A DNA stretch of 54,536 nucleotides, taken from positions 1 through 54,536 of the forward strand of contig JAIPFQ010000001.1 in NCBI GenBank assembly GCA_021736605.1, written 5' to 3'. The position numbers and the translations under genes are program-made. A model generated the notes under the pieces. The model did not search any database, was not told the origin of the DNA, and worked only from the letters and a program-made list of their open reading frames with translations. Source of the stretch: Spirochaetales bacterium. GTDB taxonomy: Bacteria; Spirochaetota; Spirochaetia; PWKH01. Positions 5,027 through 54,536 of the stretch are shown here, one piece after another (position 1 is the first letter of the stretch; every line of letters starts with the position of its first letter).

Positions 5027-5141
5027 AACTTTTCCTTTTTCAGATTGTATTTAGTAAATTTTAAAACAACTTATGGATAAAGAACACAACCTTAAAGGTA
5101 TAGTTTACTCACTGAAACGGAAAAAATTGTATTTTTGCTCT

Positions 5142-5714: not shown

Positions 5715-5823
5715 ATTTTCTCCAATCAAAATGCTCCGTAATTTTTGTATAATTAAGAATACAATTGGTTCCGCAAAGAGACAAATCCCCAAAACTAATG
5801 ACAAAAGAAAAGAAGGAAGGAAA

Positions 5824-5855
5824 GAAGTATTCGGATATAGAAGTATTCGGATATA
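5824..5855. repeat. Perfect tandem direct repeat, 2 x 16 bp (GAAGTATTCGGATATA)
   Basis: Read directly: copies at 5824-5839 and 5840-5855. They lie in the divergent intergenic region between the genes starting at 5714 (-) and 5980 (+). Confidence 0.9.
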
Positions 5856-5979
5856 AACGAATTTCTCAATAAAACAAGATTTACTTCGCCTGAAACTCCA
5901 CAAACCCATAACATGCTTATTTTCAAAAAAATTTTTCTATTATTGAATCAGAAATCATTTTTACAGTGTCATATATAGT

Positions 5980-13275: not shown

Positions 13276-13288
13276 CCATGAGAAACTA
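13276..13288 (+). promoter_or_regulatory. Box CCATGAGAAACTA, copy 1 (upstream of ROK gene)
   Basis: An identical 13-mer recurs at 14495-14507. Here it ends 40 nt before ATG 13329 and runs into the palindrome AACTATAGTT. Confidence 0.4.
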
Positions 13289-13328
13289 TAGTTGGTTTAA
13301 AAATCAACCAACCAGAAAAGCAGGTAAC

Positions 13329-14489: not shown

Positions 14490-14494
14490 AAAAG

Positions 14495-14507
14495 CCATGA
14501 GAAACTA
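14495..14507 (+). promoter_or_regulatory. Box CCATGAGAAACTA, copy 2 (upstream of ABC binding-protein gene)
   Basis: The same 13-mer as at 13276-13288. It starts 6 nt after the ROK stop and ends 54 nt before ATG 14562. Confidence 0.4.
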
Positions 14508-14561
14508 CATTGAAAAATGCTCTTCCGTTGGGAGAGTTTATGAATAAAGGAGGATGTTTTT

Positions 14562-15851
14562 ATGAAAAAAACATTGATAATGCTTTTTGTTATTCTGATC
14601 TGTTCGCCCTTATTTGTTGGTGCGCAAGGGCAGCAGGATGCAGGGCAGACATCTGATAAGGTTGTGATTGACGTAATGGCATATGGCGACAATTCTAACC
14701 AGGAAGGTGTCAGCTGGAAGCGTATTGTGGATACTTTTGAACAGAATAATCCCAATATCGAAATTGATTATGAACTGCTCTATGATGAAGCGTATCATCA
14801 GAAAGTAGTAGCTCGTCTTGCCGCCGGTGATGTTCCCGACATGGCATACATGGGCGCTGACGCCAGATGGGGGGCTCCATGGAAAGAGGCTGGGGAGCAA
14901 TGGGACCATCGAGATTTTCTTGATCCAATGTACGATCGTGAACTTATTCCTGCCATGGGGCCGAATGGTGAAATTTATGAAATTCCCCTTGGTACATCAA
15001 ACATAACAACTGTTCTCTATATGAATAAGGATTTGGTTGAATCTCTTGGTTTTTCTACTCCGGAAACCTATGAAGATATCGTCGATATGGTTCCTGCTGC
15101 TAGAAAGGCAGGCTTGGATGTTATCACCATAGATGGAGCCGACGGCTGGGCTTGGGGATCCTGTCTGCTTTCTGCAGTTATTGCCCGCATGTCCGGTGAT
15201 CCTCAGTGGGTATCTAAAGCAGTTGCCGGTGAAAATCATTTTGATGATCCTGCAATGGTTAAATCCCTGGAGTTTATTGAACAAATGGTTGATGACGGGG
15301 TTATTACAAAGAAATCCGTTCTAGTTGATTATGGAGCCAACACCTCAAAATACAATAATAAAGGTGCTTTATTTATGATACAGGGGCAATGGGTTGCGGG
15401 ATCAATTGAAAATCCGGAAGTTAAAGCTGCTACCCACCTCTTGGCGTGGCCGGAATTACCAGGAGAAAAAGAAGCTGCTGCAGGATCAGTTGCGGCGGCA
15501 ATTCAGGTTGGCTATGGAATAACCCAAACAGGAGCTTCAAAACCTGAAGTCCGTGATGCAGCACTGAAGTTTCTCAACTATTTCTACTCAGAACCTGAAT
15601 CTACCCAGCGTTTGCGCGATGGTGCGATTATTGCTCCTATTCTTAAAGATTACCAGGTACCCGAAGATATTCAACCTATTGTAAAACGCAAAGTTGAACT
15701 TGCACAAACTGCTTCTTACACAGAAGTAATTGATGCTTTCTTGACTGGACCTCCAAATGATGCATTAAACTCCGGCATGCAGAAAATTGTTGCCGGTCAG
15801 GCAAGTCCGAAAGAAATTGCTGAGGAAGTTGAACGCTTAGCAAGGAAGTGA
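14562..15851 (+). CDS. Sugar ABC transporter substrate-binding protein (family 1 extracellular solute-binding protein)
   Basis: 429 aa. The signal peptide is MKKTLIMLFVILICSPLFVGAQG. Composition is typical of a sugar SBP, an AAGGAGG RBS is present, and two permease genes follow. Confidence 0.8.
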   Translation: MKKTLIMLFVILICSPLFVGAQGQQDAGQTSDKVVIDVMAYGDNSNQEGVSWKRIVDTFEQNNPNIEIDYELLYDEAYHQKVVARLAAGDVPDMAYMGADARWGAPWKEAGEQWDHRDFLDPMYDRELIPAMGPNGEIYEIPLGTSNITTVLYMNKDLVESLGFSTPETYEDIVDMVPAARKAGLDVITIDGADGWAWGSCLLSAVIARMSGDPQWVSKAVAGENHFDDPAMVKSLEFIEQMVDDGVITKKSVLVDYGANTSKYNNKGALFMIQGQWVAGSIENPEVKAATHLLAWPELPGEKEAAAGSVAAAIQVGYGITQTGASKPEVRDAALKFLNYFYSEPESTQRLRDGAIIAPILKDYQVPEDIQPIVKRKVELAQTASYTEVIDAFLTGPPNDALNSGMQKIVAGQASPKEIAEEVERLARK

Positions 15852-15869
15852 GCGTAATTACTTGAAAAT

Positions 15870-15901
15870 AAAGAGGAGAAGGAGTTTTCTTTCTCCTCTT
15901 T
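15870..15901 (+). terminator. Hairpin after the binding-protein gene (partial terminator or mRNA stabiliser)
   Basis: AAAGAGGAGAA (15870-80) pairs with TTCTCCTCTTT (15891-901). The site lies 19 nt after the SBP stop and is followed by a short T-containing tail. Confidence 0.5.
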
Positions 15902-15969
15902 TAACTAAAATTAGAGTTTATAATAGAAGATGATCTCTTTTTTTTGAGTATTTTTTAGGAGTATTTGTT

Positions 15970-16884
15970 TTGAATGCACGTAAACGCAGAGAGTTGCCTG
16001 TCTATTTTGCTTTTATAGGTCCGGCACTTATTGTCTATTTAACTGTTGTTGCCTACCCGGTGTTATATTCGTTATTTCTAAGTTTCTCTGATTTCAACCC
16101 AAATATCGGCGGAACTTGGAATTTTGTTGGATTTACACATTATCATCGAATGATACAGGACCCTAATTTCTGGCACGCCTTAAAAAACAATATGATAGTA
16201 GTAGCTGTCTCTGTTTTCGGCCAGATTCCAATCGGCTTTGTTCTAGCTTATATTTTATATCGGCGGATGGTAAAAGCAAGAATATTTTTTCAATCGATGA
16301 TATTTTTACCGCATTTTTTATCAGTTATAGTTATTGGTACAATTTGGAAACGAATGTTTGAGGCTGATGGTCCCGTATCCGGGATAATTCAATTAGTAAG
16401 CGGAGACCAGACCGCTCAATTCGAGATGATGCTTCATCAGAATCAAATAATGATTCCGATTGGATTTGCATTAATTTGGATTTACACCGGCTTATATATG
16501 ATAATCTTTCTGGCAAATTTACAGAAGATTGAAGAAAGCCTTATTGAGTCAGCTAAAATTGACGGTGCCAGAGAGGCTCAAATCTTTATGAAGATTATTG
16601 TCCCTATTCTGTGGGGAACTATTCTTATTTCCTCGGTACTTGCAATAGCCGGTTCACTTAAAGGATTTGATTTGATTTTTGGTATAACAACCCAGGGACT
16701 TCAAAGACAGAATGCACTTGTGCTTCCCATTTTTATGTATGAAACAGCTTTTCGTGATTATTCAGATCCTATGCGCTTTGCTTATGGAGCAACAATTTCT
16801 AATGCGATTGTTGCAATCAGTCTTTTTATGATTGTAATAAGTAATTTAATCAGCAGAAAATTCAGACCAAATGAGGAAGACTAA
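15970..16884 (+). CDS. Carbohydrate ABC transporter permease (MalF/UgpA-like)
   Basis: 304 aa. The TTG start lies 8 nt after TAGGAG. Multiple TM helices and the EAA-type loop ESAKIDGAREAQIFMKIIVPIL are present. Confidence 0.8.
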   Translation: MNARKRRELPVYFAFIGPALIVYLTVVAYPVLYSLFLSFSDFNPNIGGTWNFVGFTHYHRMIQDPNFWHALKNNMIVVAVSVFGQIPIGFVLAYILYRRMVKARIFFQSMIFLPHFLSVIVIGTIWKRMFEADGPVSGIIQLVSGDQTAQFEMMLHQNQIMIPIGFALIWIYTGLYMIIFLANLQKIEESLIESAKIDGAREAQIFMKIIVPILWGTILISSVLAIAGSLKGFDLIFGITTQGLQRQNALVLPIFMYETAFRDYSDPMRFAYGATISNAIVAISLFMIVISNLISRKFRPNEED

Positions 16885-16885
16885 T

Positions 16886-18001
16886 ATGAAGCAGGCGCAA
16901 AATACAGAAAAACAATTCTCTGCAGCTGATTTTTTCGGAAAATCAATTTCTTATATGGTTTTTATCAGCTGGGTGCTTATTACCCTGCTGCCGCTTTTCT
17001 GGCTTGGCTACTCCTCTTTTAAGTCAAATGAAGAGCTGACACGAGATATATTTGCTTTTCCGCATGACCTCTTTGATAACTATGATGATGAATACCTGGT
17101 GATTGCTCCTCAGTTAAATGTCATTCCTGATTATGATACTGAAAAAGATCTTCGGGAACGTTTGATCATCGAATCAAAAACAATTGCACCAGGGCGCAGG
17201 CTGATGATACATTTTTTAGTAAAAGAAGATCTTCCTTCTGAAATAGCATCATTGAAGCCGGGTGATACCCTTACCCTTTCACAGCTTCCGAATAAAATGC
17301 GACGCAGGATAAGCTGGAAAACCATCTGGTTTAACTATTCATCCGCTTTTCAACGAGGCGGACTTGGGTTGAAATTTATCAACAGTATACTCTATACTAC
17401 AGTTTCAACCTTTTTTATAATCTTCCTGGGCTTAATGGCAGCTTTTGGATTCAGTAAGATGACTTTTAAAAAACTTTCAGCTGTTTTATTATCGCTGATC
17501 GGTTTCGGCTATCTTATAAGCCAGCACCAGGTGATTATCCCTCTGTTTCTTATGTATTCATCCGTGAATCTGACAGATACCCACATTGGAATTATTATTG
17601 CTTATATTGCCTTCGGATTGCCGATATCGGTTCTGCTCACGACACAGTTTATGCGAGGACTGCCAAGCAGCTTAATTGAATCAGCAAAAATTGACGGGGC
17701 AAGTACTTTTCGAAGTTTTATCAGTATAATAATGCCGATGTGCAAACCAGTTATGGTCACAGTCGGTATCATTAGCGCATTGGGAATTTGGAATGAGTTT
17801 CTGATGGTACTGGTTCTAGCCAGCACGAATGCAACAAAATCTTTACCAGTCGGGGTATACTCTTTCTCAAGCTTGACCGGTACTCAGCTTGGCTGGCAGC
17901 TGGCTGCTCTAGTGATTGCTACAGCACCAACTATGGTTGTATATTTTTCATTTCAGCGTCAACTCACCAAAGGTGTAGTCGGCGGAGCAGTTAAAGGATA
18001 A
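16886..18001 (+). CDS. Carbohydrate ABC transporter permease (MalG/UgpE-like) with enlarged first periplasmic loop
   Basis: ORF 16871..18001 trimmed to ATG 16886, which lies 1 nt after the upstream stop with a GAGGAAG RBS. The EAA loop is ESAKIDGASTFRSFISIIMPMCKP. About 85 extra residues sit between TM1 and TM2. Confidence 0.8.
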   Translation: MKQAQNTEKQFSAADFFGKSISYMVFISWVLITLLPLFWLGYSSFKSNEELTRDIFAFPHDLFDNYDDEYLVIAPQLNVIPDYDTEKDLRERLIIESKTIAPGRRLMIHFLVKEDLPSEIASLKPGDTLTLSQLPNKMRRRISWKTIWFNYSSAFQRGGLGLKFINSILYTTVSTFFIIFLGLMAAFGFSKMTFKKLSAVLLSLIGFGYLISQHQVIIPLFLMYSSVNLTDTHIGIIIAYIAFGLPISVLLTTQFMRGLPSSLIESAKIDGASTFRSFISIIMPMCKPVMVTVGIISALGIWNEFLMVLVLASTNATKSLPVGVYSFSSLTGTQLGWQLAALVIATAPTMVVYFSFQRQLTKGVVGGAVKG

Positions 18002-44067: not shown

Positions 44068-44114
44068 TTGACTTCTGCTCAAGAATGATATAGCATAAAA
44101 GCGAATACGTAGTC
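44068..44114 (+). promoter_or_regulatory. Promoter P1 plus operator O1 for the URO-D-family gene
   Basis: TTGACT (44068-73), then 17 nt, then TAGCAT (44091-96), then 6 nt, then GAATACGTAGTC (44103-44114). Confidence 0.5.
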
Positions 44115-44171
44115 ACTTGATTTCTTACTAAAATTTTTTATAAAAAGAAAAGAGAGGAACAATCAGTAATT

Positions 44172-45215
44172 ATGTCAACATTAAGAGAACGGAATTTCAG
44201 GCGTTTGAAAGAGAGCATTACTGCAAAAAGCTCAGATGGTCATGCAGTATTCAACTTCTATACTTTCCCTTTTTTCAGGTCGATTACGGGCGTAGACCTT
44301 GATCAGTATTTCCATAATCCGGAAGTGACACTTGAATGCCAGCTCGAAGCCCTGGAGAAAATCGATGGTATTGGTAATCCGGTACCGGATATGGGCGCTG
44401 TTGCTGAAGCCAGCGGACTCGGAGGGATCGTACGTTTCGATGACTACGGTTTCATTTCTGTGCATCCGAATCCGAAGATTGCATCAGCCGCAGCTTTCAG
44501 CGATGTGGACTGGCTGGAGCCGGCTGACCCCTACGGGGACAATTACATGGGACAAGCCTTGAAGACTCTGGAGTATATGGTCGATCACTGCCCTGAGGGC
44601 TACAGGATCAATCCTCACCCGATTATGGGTCCATTCACCGTGGGAGCGAGCATCAGGGGGATTAGCGACTTCGCTGCTGATACGATTATGGAACCTGATC
44701 TAGTTGCAAAAATCCTTGATGTGGTTATCGAGACCCAGATTAGATTTATGAAAGCCCAGGAAAAAATACTCGGCTCACTGCACCACATTTTCCTTGCCGA
44801 TGACCTCTCAGCATTCCTGAGCGAGGAAATGTACCGTGATATCATTCTTCCTGGTTATCACAGGCTTTTTGAACAGTTTCCCAATACCCAGCGATGGCTT
44901 CATAACGATTCAACTGCTCGTCATGTGGCTCCTGCAATTGCCGACTCCGGTATGGTTGCCTGGCAGTATCTTCCTGAGATCTCTCCTGCTGATGCCCTGA
45001 AGCTCACTGGTGGTAAGGTTACCTTGCTTGGTGGCCTGAACCCGCTTGAGATGCAGGAATGGACCGAGGAAGAGACCTACGACAAATGTGTAGAGGTCCT
45101 GAAGTCTTTCGGCGGCAACAATAAGTGCGTTCTGGCTGCGGGAGGATCTGTGAATCAGGTGCCGATTGCCAACTTAAAGGCAATGTTCAAAGCGGCTGAT
45201 GAGTATAAGCTCTAG
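44172..45215 (+). CDS. Uroporphyrinogen decarboxylase (URO-D) family protein (MtaA/CmuA-like fold; function unknown)
   Basis: 347 aa. Overall URO-D/methylcobamide methyltransferase-like pattern (...IFLADDLSAFLSEEMYRDIILPGYHRLF...). No corrinoid protein gene lies nearby. Confidence 0.6.
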   Translation: MSTLRERNFRRLKESITAKSSDGHAVFNFYTFPFFRSITGVDLDQYFHNPEVTLECQLEALEKIDGIGNPVPDMGAVAEASGLGGIVRFDDYGFISVHPNPKIASAAAFSDVDWLEPADPYGDNYMGQALKTLEYMVDHCPEGYRINPHPIMGPFTVGASIRGISDFAADTIMEPDLVAKILDVVIETQIRFMKAQEKILGSLHHIFLADDLSAFLSEEMYRDIILPGYHRLFEQFPNTQRWLHNDSTARHVAPAIADSGMVAWQYLPEISPADALKLTGGKVTLLGGLNPLEMQEWTEEETYDKCVEVLKSFGGNNKCVLAAGGSVNQVPIANLKAMFKAADEYKL

Positions 45216-45370
45216 TGCCTGATGACATGGTGCGAGCAGCAAGGCAGTTAAAGCTTCCAAAAGAGCGAGGATTCCCAAGCGGAATACCGAAGAGACTAGA
45301 TGCAGAGCATCATGAGAGTGATATGTCGGCGCCGCAGTTACAGAACTCTATCCTCAGGCTAGTCACAAGA

Positions 45371-45403
45371 GCCGGAAAATCACTGATTTTCCGGCTTCAA
45401 TTT
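45371..45403 (+). terminator. Rho-independent terminator
   Basis: GCCGGAAAATC-ACTG-GATTTTCCGGC is a perfect 11-bp stem, followed by TTCAATTT. It begins 156 nt after the URO-D stop. Confidence 0.7.
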
Positions 45404-45491
45404 CAATTACGTATTGATTAATAATATTCAGTAAATTCATGCAAAAGCAGATAGAAACTGAAACTGCAGCGAATCCAATAGCTTATTATTT

Positions 45492-46775
45492 CTATTTCAT
45501 TAACAAATTAGGTAGAAACATGGAGATCTCAGGAATAAATGTTATCAGCATCAAAGCTGCTGCCATAACTAATATAAAAGGAATAATTGATCGAGATATT
45601 CTTTCAAATGAAACTCCGGAAATCTGACAGGAGACAAAGAGATTAGCACCTAGAGGAGGTGTAACAAAGCCAATTGCCAAATTTATAACCATGATGATTC
45701 CAAATTGTACAGGACTCATACCTAAAGCTGTTACAATTGGCAGGAGGATGGGTGTTAAGATGATAACAGCAGCTAAAGTCTCCATGAATGTTCCGACAGC
45801 AAGGAGTAATAAATTAATAAGAATAAAAATTATATATTTATTACTTGAAACACCGACAATAAAGTTAGCAATTAATTCAGGAATTCGTTCAAGTGTTAAA
45901 ATTCTGCCGAAACCTGCCGATGTTCCAATGATTACAAGAACCGTTGCAGTAATTAATCCGGAACGAAGGATAACATCCGGAAGTTCAACCAGCTTAATTT
46001 CTTTGTATACAAAAACTCCTATTATATAGCCGTAAATAACTGCTGCAGCAGCCGCTTCAGTTGGGGTGAAAATACCGCCGTAAATACCTCCAAGTATGAT
46101 TACCGGAACCAATAAAGACCATTTAGCTTCGTTTATGACTGATAGTTTCTCCTTTAAGCTGTATCTTTTATCCTCGCCTTTATAATCATTTTTCTTTGAG
46201 ATGATATATGAATAAATCATTAGGGATATTCCGACTAGTATCCCAGGTAAAATACCAGCTAGAAATATTGCAGTTATCGAAACTCCTGCAGTTACTCCAT
46301 AAATTACCATTGTTATGCTTGGGGGAATCATAGCTCCAATACTACCTGATGAGGCAATTAATGCTGACGAAAACCCTTTATCATAGTTTTTTTTAGTCAT
46401 TTCTGGAATAACCATAGTACCTATAGCTGCTACAGTTGCCGATCCTGTACCGGAGATTGCCGCAAAAAACATACAGGCAACAACGGTAACTAAAGCCAAA
46501 CCTCCTGTATGATGACCAAAAAATACGTCTGCTACCTTAAGCAGTCGTTTAGAAATACCCCCTTTTCCCATGAGATCCCCGGCTAGTATAAAAAAAACTG
46601 CAGCCATAAGGGGGAAAGAATCCATTGCTGTTGTTAGTCCCTGTGCGAAGAAAGTTATATCAACAATACCGCTGTAAAATATTGTACCCATAACAGCAAG
46701 TCCCAGGGATATGCCGATAGGGACGCTTAACATAGAAAATAGGATAAATCCTCCAAATAATATTACTGATGTCAT
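45492..46775 (-). CDS. dctM: TRAP transporter large permease subunit
   Basis: 427 aa, polytopic, DctM-like. Its start overlaps the dctQ stop (TAATG). Confidence 0.88.
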   Translation of the reverse strand: MTSVILFGGFILFSMLSVPIGISLGLAVMGTIFYSGIVDITFFAQGLTTAMDSFPLMAAVFFILAGDLMGKGGISKRLLKVADVFFGHHTGGLALVTVVACMFFAAISGTGSATVAAIGTMVIPEMTKKNYDKGFSSALIASSGSIGAMIPPSITMVIYGVTAGVSITAIFLAGILPGILVGISLMIYSYIISKKNDYKGEDKRYSLKEKLSVINEAKWSLLVPVIILGGIYGGIFTPTEAAAAAVIYGYIIGVFVYKEIKLVELPDVILRSGLITATVLVIIGTSAGFGRILTLERIPELIANFIVGVSSNKYIIFILINLLLLAVGTFMETLAAVIILTPILLPIVTALGMSPVQFGIIMVINLAIGFVTPPLGANLFVSCQISGVSFERISRSIIPFILVMAAALMLITFIPEISMFLPNLLMK

Positions 46776-47335
46776 TATTTATCCTCCCCTGAGTTTCCGA
46801 CGGCGGGTATAGTATTTTTTATTCCATGCATTGGTCTATGATTAAATGTTTCAAATGGTGAAGAAAAGTTTCGTATTTTATAAACTAGATTCTGTATGAG
46901 TCTGATTGATACAAGCGTGAAGCCTATTGGCACTGCAGAGTAGACAACTGACATAGAAATCTCTGTTGAAGCTGTTATCTGTCCTAATCTCGCAATTAGC
47001 TGAGCGACCTCAGTGCTTTGAAGTGTAATGATAACTGCAAAAATTAGAAACAGAATATCAGAAATCAGCATAAGAGTTTTTCTCACGCGTAGACTGAATA
47101 AATTTGTAAATACAAGTATTCGAATATGTCTTCCTTTCCGAACGCCGTAGCTTATACCAAAATACATGAGATAGATGAACATATATCGTGAAACTTCTTC
47201 AGACCAAGCTAATGAGTTTTTCGCTACATAGCGCATAAATACTTGTATACCAATAATAATACTCATGGAAAATAAAAGCGGAACCATGAAGATTGATTCA
47301 AAGTAATCATCTAGCCATGTTAAAATTTTTTTCAT
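46775..47335 (-). CDS. dctQ: TRAP transporter small permease subunit
   Basis: 186 aa with 4 TM helices, positioned between dctP and dctM. Confidence 0.8.
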   Translation of the reverse strand: MKKILTWLDDYFESIFMVPLLFSMSIIIGIQVFMRYVAKNSLAWSEEVSRYMFIYLMYFGISYGVRKGRHIRILVFTNLFSLRVRKTLMLISDILFLIFAVIITLQSTEVAQLIARLGQITASTEISMSVVYSAVPIGFTLVSIRLIQNLVYKIRNFSSPFETFNHRPMHGIKNTIPAVGNSGEDK

Positions 47336-47432
47336 AATAATGATCCTTTTGATTTACATAAAACACAAGCTGGGAGAAACACGCTTGTTTCTCCCATTCA
47401 ATAAAATAACTCGGTTTTTCAATTATTACGTA

Positions 47433-48440
47433 TTATCTGTTTTTTTCAACTTCATCAAGAAAAATTGTAAACATATCTTCGCCCGCTTTTTCTTTTACCA
47501 GACTTTGAGATGTACTCATTAAATTTCTGAACTCTGCCTTTGCTTCCGGACTAACTTCTGTTATTGTATTTCCTGCCTTTCTAACAACTTCCAAGCCCTC
47601 TTTCTCTAATTCTTCAGCAGCGTTTCTTTGGTAAGTACTTGTCTCTTCTAATGCCTGATCAACAAGTGTTCTATGTGATTCAGACAAGCCATCGTAGAAT
47701 TCTTTATTCATAATTACTACATAAGGGCTGTATTTATGTCCTGTAAGACTAATAAATGGCTGTACTTCATAAAATTTCATTTTTTCAATATTTTCCATTG
47801 TACATTCCTGGCCATCAAGTACTTTCTGCTGAAGTGCAGTAAATAGTTCTCCCCAAGCCATTGGAGTGGGACCGGCATTTACTGATTTCCATGCAGCAAT
47901 TTGAACTGGATTTTCGGGGACGCGCATTTTTATTCCAGTCATATCTTCTGGAGTCTGAACTGATCTTTTGCTGTTGGTTAGATGGCGGAAACCATTTTCC
48001 CAATATCCTAAACCAGCAATATTTTTTGAACTTAAAGCGTTAAGCATTTTATCTCCAGCAGTTCCATCTAAAACTTTATAAACATGCTCTCTTGAATCAA
48101 ACATAAAGAAAGAATCGAGTACAAAGAACTCTTTAGCAAAGGTAGCTAAATTGGTAGCTGAAACAGCTGTCATGGTAACATTTCCAAGCTGTAGGGACTC
48201 AGTAAGCTCTCTGTCCCCTCCAAGCTGTCCATTGGAATAAATTTCTACTAATATTTCTCCATTTGAGCTTTCTTCTATAAGTTCTTTAAATTTTGTAAAA
48301 CCAAGTCCCAGGCTTGTCTCTTCTGGGAGTCCATGTCCAGCTTTAATTGTTATTGGACCTCCATTCTCATCATTTCCCTGTGCAAAGACCATTCCAGTTA
48401 AAATTGTAAAACAAATTGCTAAAAATAGAACCTTCTTCAT
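47433..48440 (-). CDS. dctP: TRAP transporter substrate-binding protein (DctP family)
   Basis: 335 aa. The signal peptide is MKKVLFLAICFTILTGMVFAQG. The DctP-type block WENGFRHLTNSKR contains the carboxylate-binding Arg position. A GGAG RBS is present. Confidence 0.85.
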   Translation of the reverse strand: MKKVLFLAICFTILTGMVFAQGNDENGGPITIKAGHGLPEETSLGLGFTKFKELIEESSNGEILVEIYSNGQLGGDRELTESLQLGNVTMTAVSATNLATFAKEFFVLDSFFMFDSREHVYKVLDGTAGDKMLNALSSKNIAGLGYWENGFRHLTNSKRSVQTPEDMTGIKMRVPENPVQIAAWKSVNAGPTPMAWGELFTALQQKVLDGQECTMENIEKMKFYEVQPFISLTGHKYSPYVVIMNKEFYDGLSESHRTLVDQALEETSTYQRNAAEELEKEGLEVVRKAGNTITEVSPEAKAEFRNLMSTSQSLVKEKAGEDMFTIFLDEVEKNR

Positions 48441-48473
48441 TTTTTTCTCCTTTTAAAATTTATTAGAAATTAT

Positions 48474-48515
48474 GACAACGTATTCATTAATAAAAGATGA
48501 TTTATCATTTGTCAA
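48474..48515 (-). promoter_or_regulatory. Promoter P2 plus operator O2 for dctPQM
   Basis: The minus strand reads TTGACA (48515-48510), then 17 nt, then TATTAA (48492-48487), then 1 nt, then GAATACGTTGTC (48485-48474). It lies about 34 nt before the dctP ATG. Confidence 0.6.
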
Positions 48516-48707
48516 GAAGAATTTTTATGTGAATTTTATGTGAAACTGATATCAGATGGAACGGAAAATATAAAAATATACTGTATAACAAAATATATTT
48601 TTGCTATTATTCTTATTCAAGCAATATATTAAGTAAATAATTACATAAGCATAAAGAAGTAAATTTCCGAAATTTTTATTTCAGTAATATTTTTTAAAAG
48701 ATAGTTG

Positions 48708-48751
48708 TAGACAACCTGGTTTTTTTGGTTTATAGTAGAGACTACGTAATC
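48708..48751 (+). promoter_or_regulatory. Promoter P3 plus operator O3 for the Ldh_2-led operon
   Basis: TAGACA (48708-13), then 17 nt, then TATAGT (48731-36), then 3 nt, then GACTACGTAATC (48740-48751). Confidence 0.6.
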
Positions 48752-48839
48752 ATTTTAGGTTTCTGGAATTTTTTCTTATAATAAAACGTAACGTATTGTG
48801 CAAGCCGTAAAAAGGGTAAGAAAGGGGAGTAACTAATTT

Positions 48840-49922
48840 ATGAATACAAAAGCAAGCTATATTACTGCTGATAATTTAATGTCTTATAGTAAAAACTTGT
48901 ATGCTAAGACTGGGATGAGTGATGCGGATGCTGAGATTTGTGCAGAATGTACCGTAAAGACAAATTTATGGGGTGTTGATTCTCATGGTATTCTTCGAAC
49001 TCCCGTCTACTTGGAACGTATATTAAATGGAGCGGTTAAGCCTAGACCTGAAATACAGGAGATTGAAAATAATAAAAAGCTGCATAGCCCCGTATCTCTT
49101 CTTGACGGGGATAAAGGGCTTGGATATGTGGTTGCTGAAAAAGCAATGGAAGCAGCTGTAAAAAAAGCTGAAAGCTTTGGTCTTGGTTTTGTATTAGTAA
49201 AAAACAGCAATCACTTTGGTGCTGCATCACTTTTTTCTCGAAAAGCTGCAGAAAAAGGGTTAATAGGTATTACGGCAACAAATGTAATGCCGAATATCGG
49301 TATGCCGGGAGGTAAACTGCCTGTTACAGGGAATAATCCTATTGCTTTGGCAGCACCAATTGGTCAGCCTTATCCTTTTTCACTGGATATTTCTATGAGT
49401 GCTGTTTCTGGAGGGAAGATTCTCTTAGCTCAGAAAAAAGGTGAAAAAATTCCGAAAAACTGGGCAGTAGATAAAAATGGGAATCCAACTGATGATCCCT
49501 TTGAGGGTTTTGCAGGTATTCTCCTTCCTGTCGGAATGCATAAAGGGCTTGGACTATCTCTCTTTATTGACATTATTACAGGGGTTTTATCGAGCGGCCC
49601 CTTTTTACAGAATTTAAAGAGTATGTATAAACATGCTGAAGAAACTAGTGAAACTTCACACGTGTTCATAGTTATCGATCCCACTTTATTTCAATCAAGG
49701 GAAACTTATGAAAAGCGAATACATGAGTGGGTTCGAATGATAAAAGCAACTCCAATGACAGATCCGGAGGCAGAACAAATAATTCCTGGTGAAATAGAGT
49801 ATAAGATAGAGAAAAGCAGGAGGGATAATGGAATACCTATACCTGCTGAATTAATAACGGATTTATCTTCAATTGAAAGTCGATTAGGAAGTGACGTACA
49901 TATTGCTGATTTATTGAATTAA
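48840..49922 (+). CDS. Ldh_2 family (malate/L-lactate/sulfolactate/diketogulonate-type) NAD(P)H oxidoreductase
   Basis: 360 aa. GVDSHGILR, NSNHFGAA, TGNNPIA and ISMSAVSGGKI blocks are typical of the Ldh_2 family. Confidence 0.8.
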   Translation: MNTKASYITADNLMSYSKNLYAKTGMSDADAEICAECTVKTNLWGVDSHGILRTPVYLERILNGAVKPRPEIQEIENNKKLHSPVSLLDGDKGLGYVVAEKAMEAAVKKAESFGLGFVLVKNSNHFGAASLFSRKAAEKGLIGITATNVMPNIGMPGGKLPVTGNNPIALAAPIGQPYPFSLDISMSAVSGGKILLAQKKGEKIPKNWAVDKNGNPTDDPFEGFAGILLPVGMHKGLGLSLFIDIITGVLSSGPFLQNLKSMYKHAEETSETSHVFIVIDPTLFQSRETYEKRIHEWVRMIKATPMTDPEAEQIIPGEIEYKIEKSRRDNGIPIPAELITDLSSIESRLGSDVHIADLLN

Positions 49923-49963
49923 ATGAAGGAAATTACTAAAAAACATTTTATAAGAGGTACTAT

Positions 49964-50878
49964 ATGAAAAAGCAGAAAGATTTTATTTTAAATCAGAGAG
50001 ATTCAGTTTGGTTTCAGGAAAACAGTGCTCATGTTGTCTGTGAGTATGCGAAAAATGTTTGCGATGTAGCAATATTGCCTATTGGAGCAATAGAGCAGCA
50101 TGCAGCCCATGCACCAACAGGTATGGATACTTTCAATGCATTAGGCATTGCAGAAAAAGTAGCTGAAAAAACTGGAGCAATGATTCTCCCCTGTCCCATG
50201 TACGGATCGCATCCTCACCACCATTGGGGTATGCCTGGCACTATCCCCTTAACCTACGAAACACATATTGGACTGCTGATGGATATCATTCGCGGGGCTT
50301 CTGTTTCAGGATATAACAAATTCCTTATCATCTCTGCTCATGGGCAAGTTTCTTCAACTATAGTAGCTACTCACAAATTGGGAATAGAGGGATTATTTAC
50401 CATCTCTTCAACCTGGTATGACTTTTTACGAGATAATAAAGATGTTCTGAAGGATTATATGTGGCATGCGGATGAAGCAGAAACTTCTGTTGGACTATAT
50501 TTGTATCCTCAATGGATTAAAATGGATCTAGCTGAAGCTGGCGGAGGAACTCCTTTACTTGATTCATCGTGGAAAATCGCCCCTGGACAAGCAGCGGAAC
50601 CAGGTATGCTGTATCATTTTGAAGGAACTTTTGCCCTGCCGGAAAAGGATGACTTGGAAAATGGAGTAATCGGAGATCCGACTCAAGCAACAAGAGAAAA
50701 AGGTGAGAAGTGTGTTGAAAGAGTGGTAGGATACTATTCAAAATTGGTAAATGAGATAACAGCTAAATATCCCTGCGGAATTAACCCCCTGGGTTTTAGA
50801 AATCCCGGTGGTTATGCAGCTTCTGCAGAAATTGCCTATGATAAAGATCATGATGAAAAAGGGCAGTTGAAGAAATAG
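49964..50878 (+). CDS. Creatininase-fold (creatinine amidohydrolase family) metal hydrolase
   Basis: 304 aa. AILPIGAIEQHAAHAPTGMD, ISAHGQ and HADEAETS blocks are present. It is longer than classical ~260-aa creatininases. Confidence 0.7.
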   Translation: MKKQKDFILNQRDSVWFQENSAHVVCEYAKNVCDVAILPIGAIEQHAAHAPTGMDTFNALGIAEKVAEKTGAMILPCPMYGSHPHHHWGMPGTIPLTYETHIGLLMDIIRGASVSGYNKFLIISAHGQVSSTIVATHKLGIEGLFTISSTWYDFLRDNKDVLKDYMWHADEAETSVGLYLYPQWIKMDLAEAGGGTPLLDSSWKIAPGQAAEPGMLYHFEGTFALPEKDDLENGVIGDPTQATREKGEKCVERVVGYYSKLVNEITAKYPCGINPLGFRNPGGYAASAEIAYDKDHDEKGQLKK

Positions 50879-50931
50879 ATACGGCTTTGAATCTTTTCAG
50901 TAAAAAGAGATTTTAAAAATTGTAAATTTTT

Positions 50932-50968
50932 GTGTGCATGGAACGAATTAAATTTTCTCCATGCGCAC
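50932..50968 (+). other. Intra-operon stem-loop (11-bp stem, 15-nt loop)
   Basis: GTGTGCATGGA (50932-42) pairs with TCCATGCGCAC (50958-68), with one G-U pair. It lies between the creatininase-fold and SDR genes. There is no U-tract. Confidence 0.4.
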
Positions 50969-51026
50969 AAAATGTCATCAAAAGTTTAAGAAATGCATTA
51001 AATAAGATAATTAAAGGATAATGTTC

Positions 51027-51860
51027 ATGAAGCTGAAAGGTAAAGTTGCAGTCATAACTGGCGGCACAAAAGGAATTGGTTTGGGAATAGCTGCAGAATT
51101 TATCAAAGAAGGTGCTTCTGTAGTAATTGGAGGAAGAAACCAGCAGACAGGTTCAGAAGGTTTGGCCTTTCTGAAAAAGTTAGGGGGAGAGGCGGCTTTT
51201 GTCCCATGTGATGTAGCCAAAGTAGAAGAGCTGGACAATATAATTGAAAAAGCAGTTGAAAAGTTCGGTAAGTTGGATATCTATGTAGCAAATGCAGGTA
51301 TAAATGATCCCGAGAAGACCCGCTATTTGGATATAACTGAAGAGCAATATGATCGGATAATGGATGTAAATCTTCGGGGAATGTTTTTTGGCGGGCAGCG
51401 GGCTGCTCGACAAATGGTGAAACAAGGCAGCGGTGGAGCGATTATAAATATGTCTTCCGTAAATGCCTACTTAGCATTGAATTCGCAGATGGTGTATACC
51501 ACCTCTAAAGGCGGGATACAGCAGTTGACAAAAGTGCAGGCGGTTGCTTTGGCAGAGCATGGTATTAAGGTGAATGCTTTAGCTCCGGGGCCTATTGAAA
51601 CAGATTTAATGCGAAGAGTTGGTTCCGACAAAGAACTTATGGATACTATTCTCTCTCGAACTCCTATAGGCAGAATTGGAACAACCCAAGAATGCGGTCG
51701 ACTTGCTGTCTTTTTAGCAAGTGAAGATTCAAATTTTATTTTTGGGCAATCAATTTATAACGATGGGGGCAGAGGATTTCAGGCTTTTCCAAATCCAGGA
51801 TACAAAACAATTACAGATGAAGATTATCAATTATTAATGGAAATGAAAAAGGAGTCATAG
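51027..51860 (+). CDS. SDR family oxidoreductase
   Basis: LKGKVAVITGGTKGIG is the TGxxxGxG motif, and NAG and YTTSK (YxxxK) are present. ATG 51027 is preferred over 51021 because of the spacing to the AAAGGA RBS. Confidence 0.85.
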   Translation: MKLKGKVAVITGGTKGIGLGIAAEFIKEGASVVIGGRNQQTGSEGLAFLKKLGGEAAFVPCDVAKVEELDNIIEKAVEKFGKLDIYVANAGINDPEKTRYLDITEEQYDRIMDVNLRGMFFGGQRAARQMVKQGSGGAIINMSSVNAYLALNSQMVYTTSKGGIQQLTKVQAVALAEHGIKVNALAPGPIETDLMRRVGSDKELMDTILSRTPIGRIGTTQECGRLAVFLASEDSNFIFGQSIYNDGGRGFQAFPNPGYKTITDEDYQLLMEMKKES

Positions 51861-51863
51861 ATT

Positions 51864-53285
51864 ATGGATTATCCGAAAGTAGGATTTGTTACATTTGGTG
51901 ATCATCGAGCACCTGAATGGAATAAAGTTTTTAAGAATCTTACTATTCCAAGACATGTCAAAGCTGTAGAAGAGTTAGAAAAACTCCCAATCAGGCTAAT
52001 ATCCTTTACTGAACCTGCAAGATCCAGAGAGGAAATAAACAGTCAAATTGATTCATTAAGAAATGAACGTGTCGATATTTTCATTGCACATACACCTTGC
52101 TGGACATCACCGAATTTAGTAGTTCATGGTGTACAGAGAATGAATCTTTTTACCATCATGCTTGGTAATAGAGATATGGGAACACATGGTTGTGTAGGCC
52201 TTTTTGGAGCTTCAGGCGCTCTTGCGCAAATTGATATTCCCCATAAAAGAGTTCGACTTAATTATGATCATAAAGAATATCAGAAAAAATTACTCCCTCT
52301 GATTCGAGCAGCTTCAGTAAAAACAAAGCTTGCTGGTTCAGTTTTGGGATATTTCGGTGGTAGATCTATTGGAATTGATACGGCTACTTTTGATCCGATG
52401 GGATGGAAAAAGCAATTTGGTATTGATGCTGAACATATTGATCAGCTTGAAATAATACGTGTTGCGGAAAAAATTGAACAAGAAAGAATTGATCGTATGA
52501 GGATGTGGTTAGAATCAAATGCAAAAGATGTGCTCTACAATGACGGTAAAATGACAAAGGAAAAATTTGATTTTCAAATTGCATGCTACCTTGCAACAAA
52601 AGATTTATGCGGAGAACATCATTTAGATTTTACTGCTGTAAAATGTATGCCTGAATTATCTAACAACTATGTTCCCCAATGTATGACAGCTGCATTCCTT
52701 CCTAATAATTTTGATGGAGATGAAGGAGCTAAAGATGCTACCGTGATGGCTTGTGAAGCAGATGCCGATGGTGCATTAACTCAACAGATATTAAAAATTA
52801 TTTCAGGAGGGATGCCGACCTTCTTTGCCGATGTAAGCCATATAGATGATGAAAGAAAAACAATTTATTGTGTAAATTGCGGCGCCATGTGCGCCTGGTA
52901 TGCAGGAAGAGAAGAAGAAGCTGAAAAAAATCTTAAAAATATAACAATCAAACAATCAATACGTCCTGGCGGCGGAGGAATCACTAGTTTTTTTGCATCT
53001 GAAGGACCTATGCAATTGGCAAGACTGTATAGGGTAGACGGTAAATACAGAATGGCAATTATCCCTTGTAAAGCGATAAATCCGGAAAAAGAAGTTATTA
53101 ATGAATTTATTGAAGCAAGAGGTCCGCATCAGTTACCAACATTATTTGCAAAGGTTGAATTTGATCTTGACGGTTTTATTGAAGAGTATGGATCTAACCA
53201 TATTTCCGGGGTAGCCGGCTTATACGAGGAAGAGCTTGTAGAAGTTTGTAAGATGCTTGATATTGAGCCTGTTGTGTTCAAGTAG
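51864..53285 (+). CDS. L-fucose/L-arabinose isomerase-like family protein
   Basis: 473 aa. MACEADADGALTQQILKIISG...FADV and an overall FucI/AraA-like C-terminal domain pattern are present. It starts 4 nt after the SDR stop. Confidence 0.6.
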   Translation: MDYPKVGFVTFGDHRAPEWNKVFKNLTIPRHVKAVEELEKLPIRLISFTEPARSREEINSQIDSLRNERVDIFIAHTPCWTSPNLVVHGVQRMNLFTIMLGNRDMGTHGCVGLFGASGALAQIDIPHKRVRLNYDHKEYQKKLLPLIRAASVKTKLAGSVLGYFGGRSIGIDTATFDPMGWKKQFGIDAEHIDQLEIIRVAEKIEQERIDRMRMWLESNAKDVLYNDGKMTKEKFDFQIACYLATKDLCGEHHLDFTAVKCMPELSNNYVPQCMTAAFLPNNFDGDEGAKDATVMACEADADGALTQQILKIISGGMPTFFADVSHIDDERKTIYCVNCGAMCAWYAGREEEAEKNLKNITIKQSIRPGGGGITSFFASEGPMQLARLYRVDGKYRMAIIPCKAINPEKEVINEFIEARGPHQLPTLFAKVEFDLDGFIEEYGSNHISGVAGLYEEELVEVCKMLDIEPVVFK

Positions 53286-53391
53286 TGCCGGTATTAGAAG
53301 AATAGATGGTGCAAATGAATGAATAGAAGAGAAGTTTTAAAAAGACAATGAATCATGAAGAGTACGGTAAAGTGCTTGTCAATCATGGTAA

Positions 53392-53570
53392 ACAGGTTGG
53401 ATTAATAAAGAGTTGTATACAGATTATATGAAAGAAGCAGGTGAATATGTACAGCTTGTTTACTTAACTGATGATTTCGGTAGTCAAAATTCTTTGCTCC
53501 TTTCACCGGATATCTGGAATGAGTTTCTGAAGCCCTATGAAGCTGGACTTATCCAGCATAAAAAATATTA
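53392..53570 (+). pseudogene. Relic of a URO-D family gene (central fragment only)
   Basis: Hand translation gives TGWINKELYTDYMKEAGEYVQLVYLTDDFGSQNSLLLSPDIWNEFLKPYEAGLIQHKKY*. It aligns in pattern with residues IETQIRFMKAQEKILGSLHHIFLADDLSAFLSEEMYRDIILPGYHRLFEQ of the intact URO-D-family gene at 44172. Stops lie immediately upstream in this frame, and another short piece (MNHEEYGKVLVNHGKQVG) sits in a different frame at 53349. Confidence 0.55.
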
Positions 53571-53604
53571 AAAAGTTAAATTAGAGACTATTTGGAGATG
53601 AGAT

Positions 53605-54390
53605 ATGGAATTAACTAACACTAATCCAGTTAAGCAGTCCCTTAGGGACGGAAAGAGAGTTTGTGCAGCCTGGGCTCAGGCTGCAAGTAATATAACTGCA
53701 GAAGTTCTTGCTGATGCAGGTTTTGATATTGTTATGGTTGATATGGAGCATGGTCCTGGGGATATCCTTACCCTCATTAGTCAAATACAAGCGATGAAAG
53801 GGAATGCTGCTGTTCCTTTTGTAAGAGCCCCGTGGAATGATTTCGTCATGATTAAGAAAATTCTTGATGCTGGAGCTTTTGGGCTGCTTGTTCCCTATGT
53901 AAATAATCTTGAACAGGCAAAAGCTGCTGTTAAAGCAGTAAAATATCCAACTCAGGGTATTCGCGGTGTTTCAGGAAGCCCAAGGGGACCCCATTTTGGG
54001 AATAAATCGCTTGATTACATGAAAAAGGCTAATGAAGAAATATTTTTAATGACGGCGATTGAAACCCCTGAAGCAGTGGCAAACATTGATGAACTTCTTT
54101 CTGTTGATGAGATTGATGGAATATTTATCGGTCCAATGGATTTAGCAACAAGCATGGGCCATTTTGGCAACCCTTCTCATCCTGATGTGAAAAAAACAAT
54201 TGAGAAGATCGAAAATAAAGTCATTTCCAGCAATAAAATCTTAGCAACTGTAGGCGGGACATGGGACCAGGCAATAGAAAAGTATGAAAAAGGTTATCAA
54301 ATTTTAATGCTTATGTCTGATACCACTAGCCTTAGTTCTTTTGCAAGAAAATTGACTGAAAATTTTTTCAAACAATTCCCTGACAGATAG
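53605..54390 (+). CDS. HpcH/HpaI family (class II, 2-keto-3-deoxy-acid) aldolase
   Basis: 261 aa. VMVDMEHGPG, VRAPWND, GLLVPYVN and IGPMDLA blocks are typical of HpcH/HpaI/YfaU-type aldolases. Confidence 0.8.
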   Translation: MELTNTNPVKQSLRDGKRVCAAWAQAASNITAEVLADAGFDIVMVDMEHGPGDILTLISQIQAMKGNAAVPFVRAPWNDFVMIKKILDAGAFGLLVPYVNNLEQAKAAVKAVKYPTQGIRGVSGSPRGPHFGNKSLDYMKKANEEIFLMTAIETPEAVANIDELLSVDEIDGIFIGPMDLATSMGHFGNPSHPDVKKTIEKIENKVISSNKILATVGGTWDQAIEKYEKGYQILMLMSDTTSLSSFARKLTENFFKQFPDR

Positions 54391-54422
54391 GAAAAAAAGA
54401 ACGAAAGAGACAGGAGGAATAT

Positions 54423-54536
54423 ATGGCGAAAGTGAAAGTAGGAGTAGCAGGATACGGAGTAATCGGCCAGCGATTGGCAGACGGAGTAGCCCTGCAGGGA
54501 GATATGGAGCTGATAGGAGTGGCGGATGTAGCGCCG
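54423..54536 (+). CDS. NAD(P)-dependent dehydrogenase resembling type II (archaeal-type) glyceraldehyde-3-phosphate dehydrogenase; 5' part only
   Basis: Not in the ORF track because it is open at the window edge. ATG 54423 follows CAGGAGGAATAT. MAKVKVGVAGYGVIGQRLADGVALQGDMELIGVADVAP closely parallels the GYGTVGKRVADA..QDDM.VIGV N-terminus of type II GAPDH. A meso-DAP dehydrogenase-like fold cannot be excluded from 38 aa. Confidence 0.45.
   Translation, partial: MAKVKVGVAGYGVIGQRLADGVALQGDMELIGVADVAP

What the first reader, a model, noticed from the sequence alone, without database searches (positions are those of the whole stretch)
44068..48751. One 12-bp palindrome sits just after the -10 box of three promoters around a TRAP/catabolic cluster
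Read directly from the sequence:
- P1 (+): TTGACT-17 nt-TAGCAT, then 6 nt, then GAATACGTAGTC (44103-44114), about 58 nt before the URO-D-family ATG.
- P2 (-): TTGACA-17 nt-TATTAA, then 1 nt, then GAATACGTTGTC (48485-48474), about 34 nt before the dctP ATG.
- P3 (+): TAGACA-17 nt-TATAGT, then 3 nt, then GACTACGTAATC (48740-48751), about 89 nt before the Ldh_2 ATG.

In a common orientation the sites read GACTACGTATTC, GACAACGTATTC and GACTACGTAATC. This gives GACWACGTAWTC, one or two substitutions from the perfect palindrome GACTACGTAGTC. A dyad that overlaps the expected transcription start is the classical position for a dimeric repressor operator. I therefore infer that the three transcription units form one regulon. 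No regulator gene lies inside the cluster in this window, so the cognate factor is unseen. It may lie beyond the right edge or elsewhere in the genome.
Basis: seen in the sequence. Interest (0 to 1): 0.72.

Follow-up and report, generated by a model that had tools for sequence, protein, structure and literature searches.

The report
Operators of a LacI-type sugar-acid repressor
Three copies of a short DNA palindrome next to the start sites of a nutrient-uptake and breakdown gene cluster are real, evolutionarily conserved docking sites for a LacI-family repressor, which is ordinary bacterial gene control, here for a pathway nobody has characterised.

Summary
GACWACGTAWTC occurs exactly three times in the window (0.03 expected), always in intergenic DNA, 33–88 nt upstream of the URO-D-like, dctP and Ldh_2 start codons. 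Each copy begins within 6 nt of a -10-like hexamer.

The full site is a 14-bp dyad, T-GACTAC·GTAWTC-A, with a central CG and outer TG/CA. It belongs to a wider family, TGNNTACGTANNCA.
- Across 80 syntenic loci plus the window, from Spirochaetia, Chloroflexota, Desulfobacterota, Actinomycetota and Firmicutes, the family motif has 134 hits against 18.5 expected.
- 84% of those hits fall in the 14% of sequence that is intergenic.
- The hits lie upstream of the same genes, usually abutting a -10 box, and often upstream of a co-clustered LacI-family gene.

In the closest relatives the operon continues HpcH, type II GAPDH, PGK, racemase-like gene, LacI. The window breaks off inside the GAPDH gene, so the regulator is predicted 3–4 kb past the right edge. 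I could not retrieve that DNA.

This is a new member of a known kind and of modest interest. The regulated pathway itself appears uncharacterised.

The parts
44068..44096 (+). P1: promoter-like TTGACT-17-TAGCAT upstream of the URO-D/MtaA-like gene
   Evidence: Read and listed by the consensus scan at 9/12. There is no orthologous footprint for this promoter, but the L029 orthologue (72% identical) has TTGACG-17-TATTAT followed by an operator.
44102..44115 (.). Operator O1, CGAATACGTAGTCA (14-bp dyad), 5 nt after the P1 -10 and 56 nt before the ATG at 44172
   Evidence: It is one of only three matches to TGNNTACGTANNCA with one mismatch or fewer in 54.5 kb.
44172..45215 (+). URO-D family (MtaA/CmuA-like) gene, a single-gene unit
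   Evidence: Pfam PF01208 and NCBIfam MtaA/CmuA below cut-off. The orthologue in L029 is preceded by two operators.
45492..48440 (-). TRAP transporter operon: dctP (47433-48440), dctQ (46775-47335), dctM (45492-46775)
   Evidence: Pfam DctP, DctQ and DctM. The closest solved binding protein is 7bbr.
48473..48486 (.). Operator O2, TGACAACGTATTCA, directly abutting the P2 -10 and 32 nt before the dctP ATG
   Evidence: Orthologous dctP genes in L002 and L004 carry TGATTACGTAGTCA and AGATTACGTAGTCA upstream.
48487..48515 (-). P2: TTGACA-17-TATTAA on the minus strand, driving dctPQM
   Evidence: Read. It is not listed by the consensus scan because the -10 ends in A.
48708..48736 (+). P3: TAGACA-17-TATAGT, driving the Ldh_2 operon
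   Evidence: 10/12. The -35 and -10 blocks are conserved in the alignment with L002, L004-L008 and L022 (A2).
48739..48752 (.). Operator O3, AGACTACGTAATCA, 2 nt after the P3 -10 and 87 nt before the Ldh_2 ATG
   Evidence: The core is invariant in 8 of 8 aligned Ldh_2 upstream regions.
48840..54536 (+). Catabolic operon: Ldh_2 (48840-49922), creatininase/IolN-like (49964-50878), SDR (51021-51860), fucose-isomerase-like (51864-53285), URO-D-like pseudogene remnant (about 53309-53565), HpcH aldolase (53605-54390), and the 5' end of a type II GAPDH gene (54423 to the window end)
   Evidence: The same gene order is found in L002 and L004-L008.

Best explanation
The three sites are operators for a dimeric LacI-family local repressor, and they tie three transcription units into one regulon. 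The units are the URO-D/MtaA-like gene, the dctPQM TRAP transporter, and the Ldh_2 / creatininase-like / SDR / isomerase-like / HpcH aldolase / type II GAPDH operon.

Each operator is a 14-bp dyad, T-GACTAC·GTAWTC-A, that starts 0–5 nt after the -10 hexamer. It therefore covers the expected transcription start. A bound repressor would block RNA polymerase binding, open-complex formation or promoter escape.

By analogy with the family, binding of a pathway substrate or intermediate (probably a sugar-acid-like compound imported by the TRAP system) to the sugar-binding core releases the repressor and induces all three units together.

The regulator gene is predicted to be the last or second-to-last gene of the Ldh_2 operon, about 3–4 kb beyond the window's right edge, so it would be autoregulated from P3.

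Shown: the sites exist, they are non-random, they are conserved in sequence and position, and they co-occur with a LacI orthologue in other genomes. Inferred: binding, repression, the effector, and the presence of the regulator in this genome.
For: 1. Non-randomness. There are 3 exact matches against 0.03 expected, all intergenic. They are the only three matches to the 14-bp family pattern in the window.

2. Conservation. The exact 12-mer lies 54–178 nt upstream of Ldh_2 in L002, L004-L008 and L022, and upstream of dctP in L002 and L004, although those genomes have 41–57% GC against 39% here.

3. Family-wide signal. TGNNTACGTANNCA (at most 1 mismatch) has 134 hits in 1.30 Mb of syntenic loci against 18.5±5 in shuffles. 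Of these, 112 are intergenic, where only 14% of the DNA lies. The position matrix shows a strict 14-bp dyad with no conservation beyond it.

4. Regulator. A LacI-family gene (PF00356 plus periplasmic-binding core) ends the operon in L004, with 58–59% identical orthologues in L005-L008, and the racemase-LacI adjacency recurs in L082 and L084-L086 (L084 carries the full GAPDH-PGK-racemase-LacI order). Of the LacI-containing loci, 33 of 37 have an intergenic motif, against 17 of 44 loci without LacI (Fisher p = 2.7e-6).

5. Autoregulation. Sites lie upstream of the LacI gene itself in L016, L018, L020, L037, L045, L067, L080 and L048.

6. Matching conservation of protein and site. The orthologues share a near-invariant recognition helix (DVAR-AGVSQ[S/A]TVSRVF) and hinge (YRPS-IARSL), which fits the invariant TACGTA core. 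They align end to end with RbsR, CcpA and PurR, which have solved structures.

7. Geometry. The -35, -10 and operator blocks are conserved upstream of Ldh_2. Promoter-like pairs peak with the -10 ending 0–6 nt before the operator: 35 counts against about 1–5 in most other 7-nt bins, up to 13 in bins that overlap the operator.

8. Family hallmarks. An even palindrome with a central CG, sites 30–140 bp upstream of start codons, and frequent autoregulation are the hallmarks listed in the LacI regulon survey PMC4052901. All three are met here.
Against: - The regulator gene is not in the window, and every attempt to retrieve the downstream DNA of this organism failed.
- Six deltaproteobacterial loci have the motif but no LacI gene within 10 kb on either side. 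Linkage is therefore not universal, and a different binder cannot be excluded there.
- The 14-bp conserved core is shorter than the 16–22 nt motifs typical of the survey.
- The regulator matches no NCBIfam equivalog (best is RbsR, 206 bits against a 382 cut-off), so there is no experimental anchor.
- No binding data or transcription-start data exist.
Confidence: 0.8

Rival explanations
1. The sites are genuine operators, but for a regulator that is not the co-clustered LacI-family protein. It would be an unlinked factor of another family, such as GntR, IclR, RpiR or ROK.
For: The window contains no LacI gene. Six deltaproteobacterial loci carry the motif without a LacI gene within 10 kb on either side. 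The window does encode a ROK-family regulator at 13278-14489 and two LuxR-type regulators.
Against: No other regulator family recurs in the syntenic loci. The motif has the LacI-family signature of an even dyad with a central CG. Sites precede the LacI gene itself in at least eight loci. The window's ROK and LuxR genes are at least 30 kb away, sit beside their own targets, and have no motif copy nearby.
Confidence: 0.12
2. The sites are targets of a global CcpA-like catabolite-control protein (cre-type sites) rather than a pathway-specific repressor.
For: The 14-bp TG...CG...CA frame resembles the cre consensus TGWAANCGNTNWCA (my own knowledge of the cre consensus). CcpA is among the best structural matches of the candidate regulator.
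Against: In the window the motif occurs only at this cluster, and not at the ABC sugar transporter (14562-18001) or the other carbohydrate genes. Across phyla it follows this particular gene cluster. The ATACGTAT core differs from cre at positions the family uses for specificity. The regulator scores 141–146 bits against a CcpA cut-off of 442.
Confidence: 0.04
3. The sites are chance or compositional by-products of AT-rich promoter DNA, or an RNA-level element such as a leader hairpin, with no protein operator function.
For: The region is AT-rich, and promoter-like hexamers are as frequent as in shuffles.
Against: Only 0.03 matches are expected by chance. The site is conserved in genomes with up to 57% GC. 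There is a seven-fold excess over shuffles and strong intergenic bias. The contiguous dyad has no loop. The three leaders fold no better than shuffles (z = 0.06, 1.26 and 1.11), and no Rfam family matches.
Confidence: 0.02

Closest known systems
PurR, RbsR and CcpA-type LacI-family repressors and their operators (E. coli PurR and RbsR; Bacillus CcpA/cre)
   Same: The candidate regulator aligns end to end with RbsR (9ny7), CcpA (1rzr) and PurR (1pnr and others), including the HTH and the hinge motif (Y-PS-ARSL / Y-PN-ARGL). The operator is an even dyad with a central CG and outer TG/CA. It lies 30–140 bp upstream of start codons and is autoregulated in many genomes. Its position over the transcription start is like that of lacO1 (my own knowledge).
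   Different: The core is ATACGTAT rather than the AAACGTTT or AANCGNTT cores of the PurR, RbsR and cre operators (my own knowledge of those consensus sequences). Only 14 bp are conserved. The regulator is below every NCBIfam equivalog cut-off. It controls a different, uncharacterised pathway, and its effector is unknown.
Computationally reconstructed local LacI-family regulons (RegPrecise; Ravcheev et al. 2014, PMC4052901)
   Same: The inference is of the same kind and gives the same picture: a local regulon of transporter plus catabolic operon, a palindromic motif, and a co-localised, autoregulated transcription factor.
   Different: The main text of that survey does not mention Spirochaetes. 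The 14-mers are absent from the searchable literature. I could not check RegPrecise itself, so prior cataloguing of the Chloroflexi or Deltaproteobacteria versions cannot be excluded.
E. coli yiaK-S cluster for 2,3-diketo-L-gulonate (YiaMNO TRAP transporter, YiaK Ldh_2-family reductase, YiaJ repressor)
   Same: It also pairs a TRAP transporter with an Ldh_2-family dehydrogenase in one repressor-controlled sugar-acid cluster. DctM and DctQ hit the YiaN and YiaM models, and Ldh_2 hits the 3-dehydro-L-gulonate 2-dehydrogenase model, all below cut-off.
   Different: YiaJ is an IclR-family repressor (my own knowledge). The downstream enzymes differ here (creatininase-like, isomerase-like, HpcH aldolase, type II GAPDH, PGK), and all scores are far below the equivalog cut-offs.

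Membership tests
LacI-family operator / local regulon | The binding motif is an even-length palindrome with a central CG pair | tested here: met
   The site is a 14-bp dyad of two 7-bp arms with an invariant central ACGT. The criterion comes from PMC4052901 (1173 of 1303 transcription factors). The conserved length of 14 bp is below the 16–22 nt usual in that survey.
LacI-family operator / local regulon | [quoted passage not shown] | tested here: met
   The window 14-mers end 56, 32 and 87 nt before the start codons. In related loci 112 of 134 sites are intergenic.
LacI-family operator / local regulon | A LacI-family transcription factor gene (PF00356 HTH plus periplasmic-binding-protein core) is co-localised with the sites | tested here: inconclusive
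   Met in orthologous loci: L004-L008 and 28 others, 33 of 37 LacI-containing loci carry the motif. Not met inside the window. The predicted position is 3–4 kb beyond the right edge, and that DNA could not be retrieved.
LacI-family operator / local regulon | The regulator gene is autoregulated | tested here: met
   Sites lie 34–300 nt upstream of the LacI gene in L016, L018, L020, L037, L045, L067, L080 and L048. In L004-L008 the LacI gene lies at or near the end of the operator-controlled operon. This was tested in relatives only.
LacI-family operator / local regulon | The regulator has the family HTH and a hinge helix with the conserved Leu that inserts at the central CpG | tested here: met
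   The orthologues share the HTH AGVSQ[S/A]TVSRVF and the hinge YRPS-IARSL. These align to RbsR 'YAPSALARSL' and CcpA 'YRPNAVARGL'. The role of that Leu at the CpG step is from my own knowledge of PurR and LacI structures.
LacI-family operator / local regulon | The protein binds the operator specifically, and a small-molecule effector releases it | not testable with these tools
   This needs EMSA, DAP-seq and effector screening.
CcpA/cre global catabolite control | Sites are spread over many unrelated carbohydrate operons, and the regulator is a CcpA equivalog | tested here: not met
   In 54.5 kb only this cluster carries sites. The regulator scores 141–146 bits against a CcpA cut-off of 442.

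The most novel reading that the evidence does not exclude
The operator marks out a multi-phylum regulon for a catabolic pathway that has not been described. The pathway would work in these steps:
- A TRAP or ABC transporter imports an acid sugar or cyclitol derivative.
- The substrate is processed by an Ldh_2 dehydrogenase, an IolN-like ring or amide hydrolase, an SDR, a fucose-isomerase-like enzyme and an HpcH aldolase.
- In some lineages a corrinoid-dependent methyltransferase module (URO-D/MtaA-like protein, B12-binding protein, pterin-binding protein) is attached.
- In spirochaetes a dedicated archaeal-type GAPDH and PGK pair is attached, which could harvest ATP from the aldehyde product.

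On this reading the LacI orthologue senses a metabolite not yet known as a bacterial effector.
Probability: 0.35. Interest if true: 0.55.

Novelty: new member of a known kind. Interest (0 to 1): 0.3.

Why it matters
The operator itself is textbook LacI-family biology, so it changes no concept. Its value is practical.
- It gives a precise 14-bp motif and a named candidate regulator for a conserved gene cluster of unknown function, found in Spirochaetia, Chloroflexota, Desulfobacterota, Actinomycetota and Firmicutes.
- It shows that the separately located URO-D/MtaA-like gene belongs functionally to that cluster.
- It offers a handle for finding the substrate, through regulator effector screens or reporter fusions.
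- The motif could also be used to find unlinked members of the regulon in complete genomes.

Tried and rejected
1. Extending the source contig to see the regulator directly. None of these attempts worked.
- Exact-protein look-ups of HpcH and the isomerase-like protein returned only a 5.9-kb Logan contig that ends at the same GAPDH gene.
- An exact 50-mer from the window end had no match in metagenome contigs.
- A homology search with the 56-residue GAPDH N-terminus returned only fragments, none identical.
- Four Logan contigs carrying LacI orthologues came from other samples.
- A metagenome scan with HpcH found nothing above 80% identity.

2. Literature.
- The 14-mers do not appear in searchable text.
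- Searches on the gene combination found nothing relevant.

3. RNA-level explanations. There was no Rfam hit above noise; a weak alpha_tmRNA match inside HpcH is far below its gathering score. The leaders fold no better than shuffles.

4. Other regulators.
- The window's ROK and LuxR genes are distant and have no nearby site.
- The deltaproteobacterial loci that lack LacI showed no alternative regulator family among the ten neighbouring ORFs scanned; not every ORF in those loci was scanned.

5. A longer operator. No conservation was found beyond the 14 bp.

6. Promoter duplication as the origin of the three sites. The spacers share no similarity, and the orientation of the asymmetric dyad differs between units.

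Full report
**Observation.**
- GACWACGTAWTC matches three times in 54,536 bases against 0.03 expected. None of 100 dinucleotide shuffles reached three.
- All three lie in intergenic DNA: 57 nt before the ATG of a URO-D-family gene (44172), 33 nt before the dctP ATG (48440, minus strand), and 88 nt before the Ldh_2 ATG (48840).
- The region is AT-rich, and a consensus scan finds as many promoter-like pairs as in shuffles (18 against 17.9). P2's -10 (TATTAA) fails a strict consensus. The promoter calls therefore needed independent support.

**Gene context.**
- After recJ come the URO-D/MtaA-like gene (44172-45215, plus strand) and the convergent TRAP transporter operon dctP-dctQ-dctM (48440 down to 45492, minus strand).
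- Divergent from dctP is a plus-strand operon: an Ldh_2-family dehydrogenase, a creatininase-family protein closest to IolN, an SDR, a fucose-isomerase-like protein and an HpcH-family aldolase.
- A gene begins at 54423 and is cut by the window end. Its N-terminus belongs to a type II (archaeal-type) glyceraldehyde-3-phosphate dehydrogenase.
- No regulator lies in the cluster, and no LacI-like gene lies anywhere in the window (best tblastn E 0.14).
- The window's other regulators are a ROK protein beside its own ABC transporter and two LuxR-type proteins. They are at least 30 kb away and have no motif copy nearby.

**Comparative evidence.** The isomerase-like protein has its nearest relatives (about 75% identity) in uncultured Spirochaetia. 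I fetched 80 syntenic loci from reference genomes with 10-kb flanks.
- The exact 12-mer recurs 54–178 nt upstream of Ldh_2 in seven spirochaete loci (L002, L004-L008, L022) and upstream of dctP in L002 and L004. Those genomes have 41–57% GC against 39% here.
- Aligning the sites with their flanks shows that the conserved unit is 14 bp, T-GACTAC·GTAWTC-A.
- More distant loci carry variants such as TGTATACGTATACA, TGAATACGTATTCA and TGCATACGTATTCA. These lie upstream of the orthologous Ldh_2, dctP, dctQ, lactonase (SGL), creatininase-like and URO-D-like genes.
- With TGNNTACGTANNCA and at most one mismatch, 1.30 Mb of loci hold 134 hits against 18.5±5 in shuffles. Of these, 112 fall in the 14% of sequence that is intergenic.
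- A symmetrised position matrix shows a strict 14-bp dyad and no conservation outside it.

**The regulator.** In L004 the operon continues past HpcH with type II GAPDH, phosphoglycerate kinase, an Asp/Glu-racemase-family gene and then a 341-residue LacI-family regulator.
- Orthologues 58–59% identical occupy the same position in L005-L008. The racemase-LacI adjacency is repeated on the independent Logan contigs L082 and L084-L086, and L084 carries the full GAPDH-PGK-racemase-LacI order.
- Across all loci, 33 of 37 with a LacI homologue have an intergenic motif, against 17 of 44 without one (Fisher p = 2.7e-6). Shorter contigs inflate the LacI-negative class.
- In at least eight loci a site lies just upstream of the LacI gene itself, which indicates autoregulation.
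- The orthologues share a nearly invariant recognition helix (AGVSQ[S/A]TVSRVF) and hinge (YRPS-IARSL) across phyla. This matches the invariance of the TACGTA core.
- They align end to end with RbsR, CcpA and PurR.
- They reach no NCBIfam equivalog cut-off (best is RbsR, 206 bits against 382), so this is an uncharacterised orthologous group.
- The LacI regulon survey PMC4052901 lists the family hallmarks: even palindromes with a central CG, more than 75% of sites 30–140 bp upstream of start codons, and 72% autoregulation. All are met here.

**Geometry and mechanism.**
- An alignment of eight Ldh_2 upstream regions shows three conserved blocks: T[A/G/T]GACA, a spacer of about 17 nt, TATAAT or TATAGT, and then the operator after 1–3 nt. 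In L022 the operator lies 14 nt further away.
- Across 132 sites, stringent -35/-10 pairs pile up with the -10 ending 0–6 nt before the operator: 35 counts against about 1–5 in most other 7-nt bins, up to 13 in bins that overlap the operator. Examples from several phyla are visible.
- In the window the 14-mers start 5, 0 and 2 nt after the -10 hexamers, so the expected start point lies inside each operator.
- The most likely mechanism is therefore classical. A LacI-family dimer sits over the start site and blocks initiation until a pathway metabolite binds its core domain. Binding, repression and the effector are inferred, not shown.

**Where the regulator should be.** In L004 and L005 the LacI gene starts about 3.1–3.2 kb after the end of HpcH. 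In L006 and L008 the distance is about 4.3 kb. This predicts a start near 57.5–58.7 kb in window coordinates, which is 3–4 kb beyond the right edge. All attempts to retrieve that DNA failed. This step rests on synteny alone.

**Rivals.**
- A different, unlinked regulator is possible. Six deltaproteobacterial loci keep the motif but have no LacI gene within 10 kb on either side. No other regulator family turned up among the ORFs I annotated in those loci.
- A global CcpA-like system is unlikely, because the sites track only this cluster.
- Chance and RNA-structure readings are excluded by the conservation and by folding and Rfam controls.

**Verdict.** It is a new, uncharacterised member of a very well-known kind of system. 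The more interesting open question is what the regulated pathway degrades.

Noticed in passing
window 53286-53604: The 320-nt 'gap' between the isomerase-like gene and HpcH is a decayed remnant of a second URO-D-like gene that L005-L008 carry at this position. tblastn matches residues about 3-34 (53309-53407) and about 198-254 (53407-53565) at 66–70% identity (E 1e-20 to 1e-24), with roughly 165 codons deleted. The intact URO-D-like gene at 44172 is a different paralogue, about 20% identical to that one.
   Followed up: partly
L038 11445-14947; L046 11428-12612 and 16698-18177: In deltaproteobacterial versions of the cluster, the URO-D/MtaA-like gene sits with a B12-binding corrinoid protein and a pterin-binding methyltransferase. 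This suggests a corrinoid-dependent demethylation step in the pathway. A histidinol-dehydrogenase-like gene and a SnoaL-like gene are also present.
   Followed up: partly
window 54423-54536; L004 12239-15307; L084 327-3378: An archaeal-type (type II) GAPDH, a phosphoglycerate kinase and an Asp/Glu-racemase-family gene are embedded in the spirochaete catabolic operon, directly after the HpcH aldolase. A dedicated GAPDH and PGK pair in a sugar-acid operon is unusual. It might oxidise the aldolase's aldehyde product with ATP gain.
   Followed up: no
window 44102-44115, 48473-48486, 48739-48752; L002, L004-L008, L022: In the window's clade almost every operator is asymmetric: 13 of the 15 sites pair one GACTAC half-site with one GA[A/T]TAC half-site (P2 has GACAAC; one L022 site has CAATAC). 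The perfect palindrome never occurs. The orientation is fixed per gene: the GACTAC half is next to the -10 at Ldh_2 and distal to it at dctP and the URO-D-like gene.
   Followed up: partly
L041 1552, 6943, 14564; L048 5110, 6222: Two Actinomycetota loci carry the exact 12-mer inside a longer repeat of about 35 nt (ctatGACTACGTATTCagacaatgcaa), present in 3 and 2 copies. In L048 one copy lies 81 nt upstream of a LacI-family gene. The extended conservation suggests a duplicated promoter-operator cassette.
   Followed up: partly
window 48753-48839: The Ldh_2 leader has a window-specific insertion of about 45 nt relative to other spirochaetes. It contains a perfect TATAAT (48777-48782) and an ACGTAACGTATT element (48787-48798) that resembles an operator half-site. 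This may be a second promoter or an auxiliary half-site.
   Followed up: no
L022 1060-1085: A tandem site, AATACGTATTCaaatGACTACGTATTC, precedes a 454-aa ORF followed by two ORFs of permease size. This is probably an ABC transporter recruited to the same regulon in Candidatus Marispirochaeta.
   Followed up: no
window 13278-18001 and 4334-6699: A ROK-family regulator lies next to an ABC sugar transporter (binding protein plus two permeases). There is also a divergent pair of LuxR-type regulators, one with a receiver domain. None is related to the motif.
   Followed up: no
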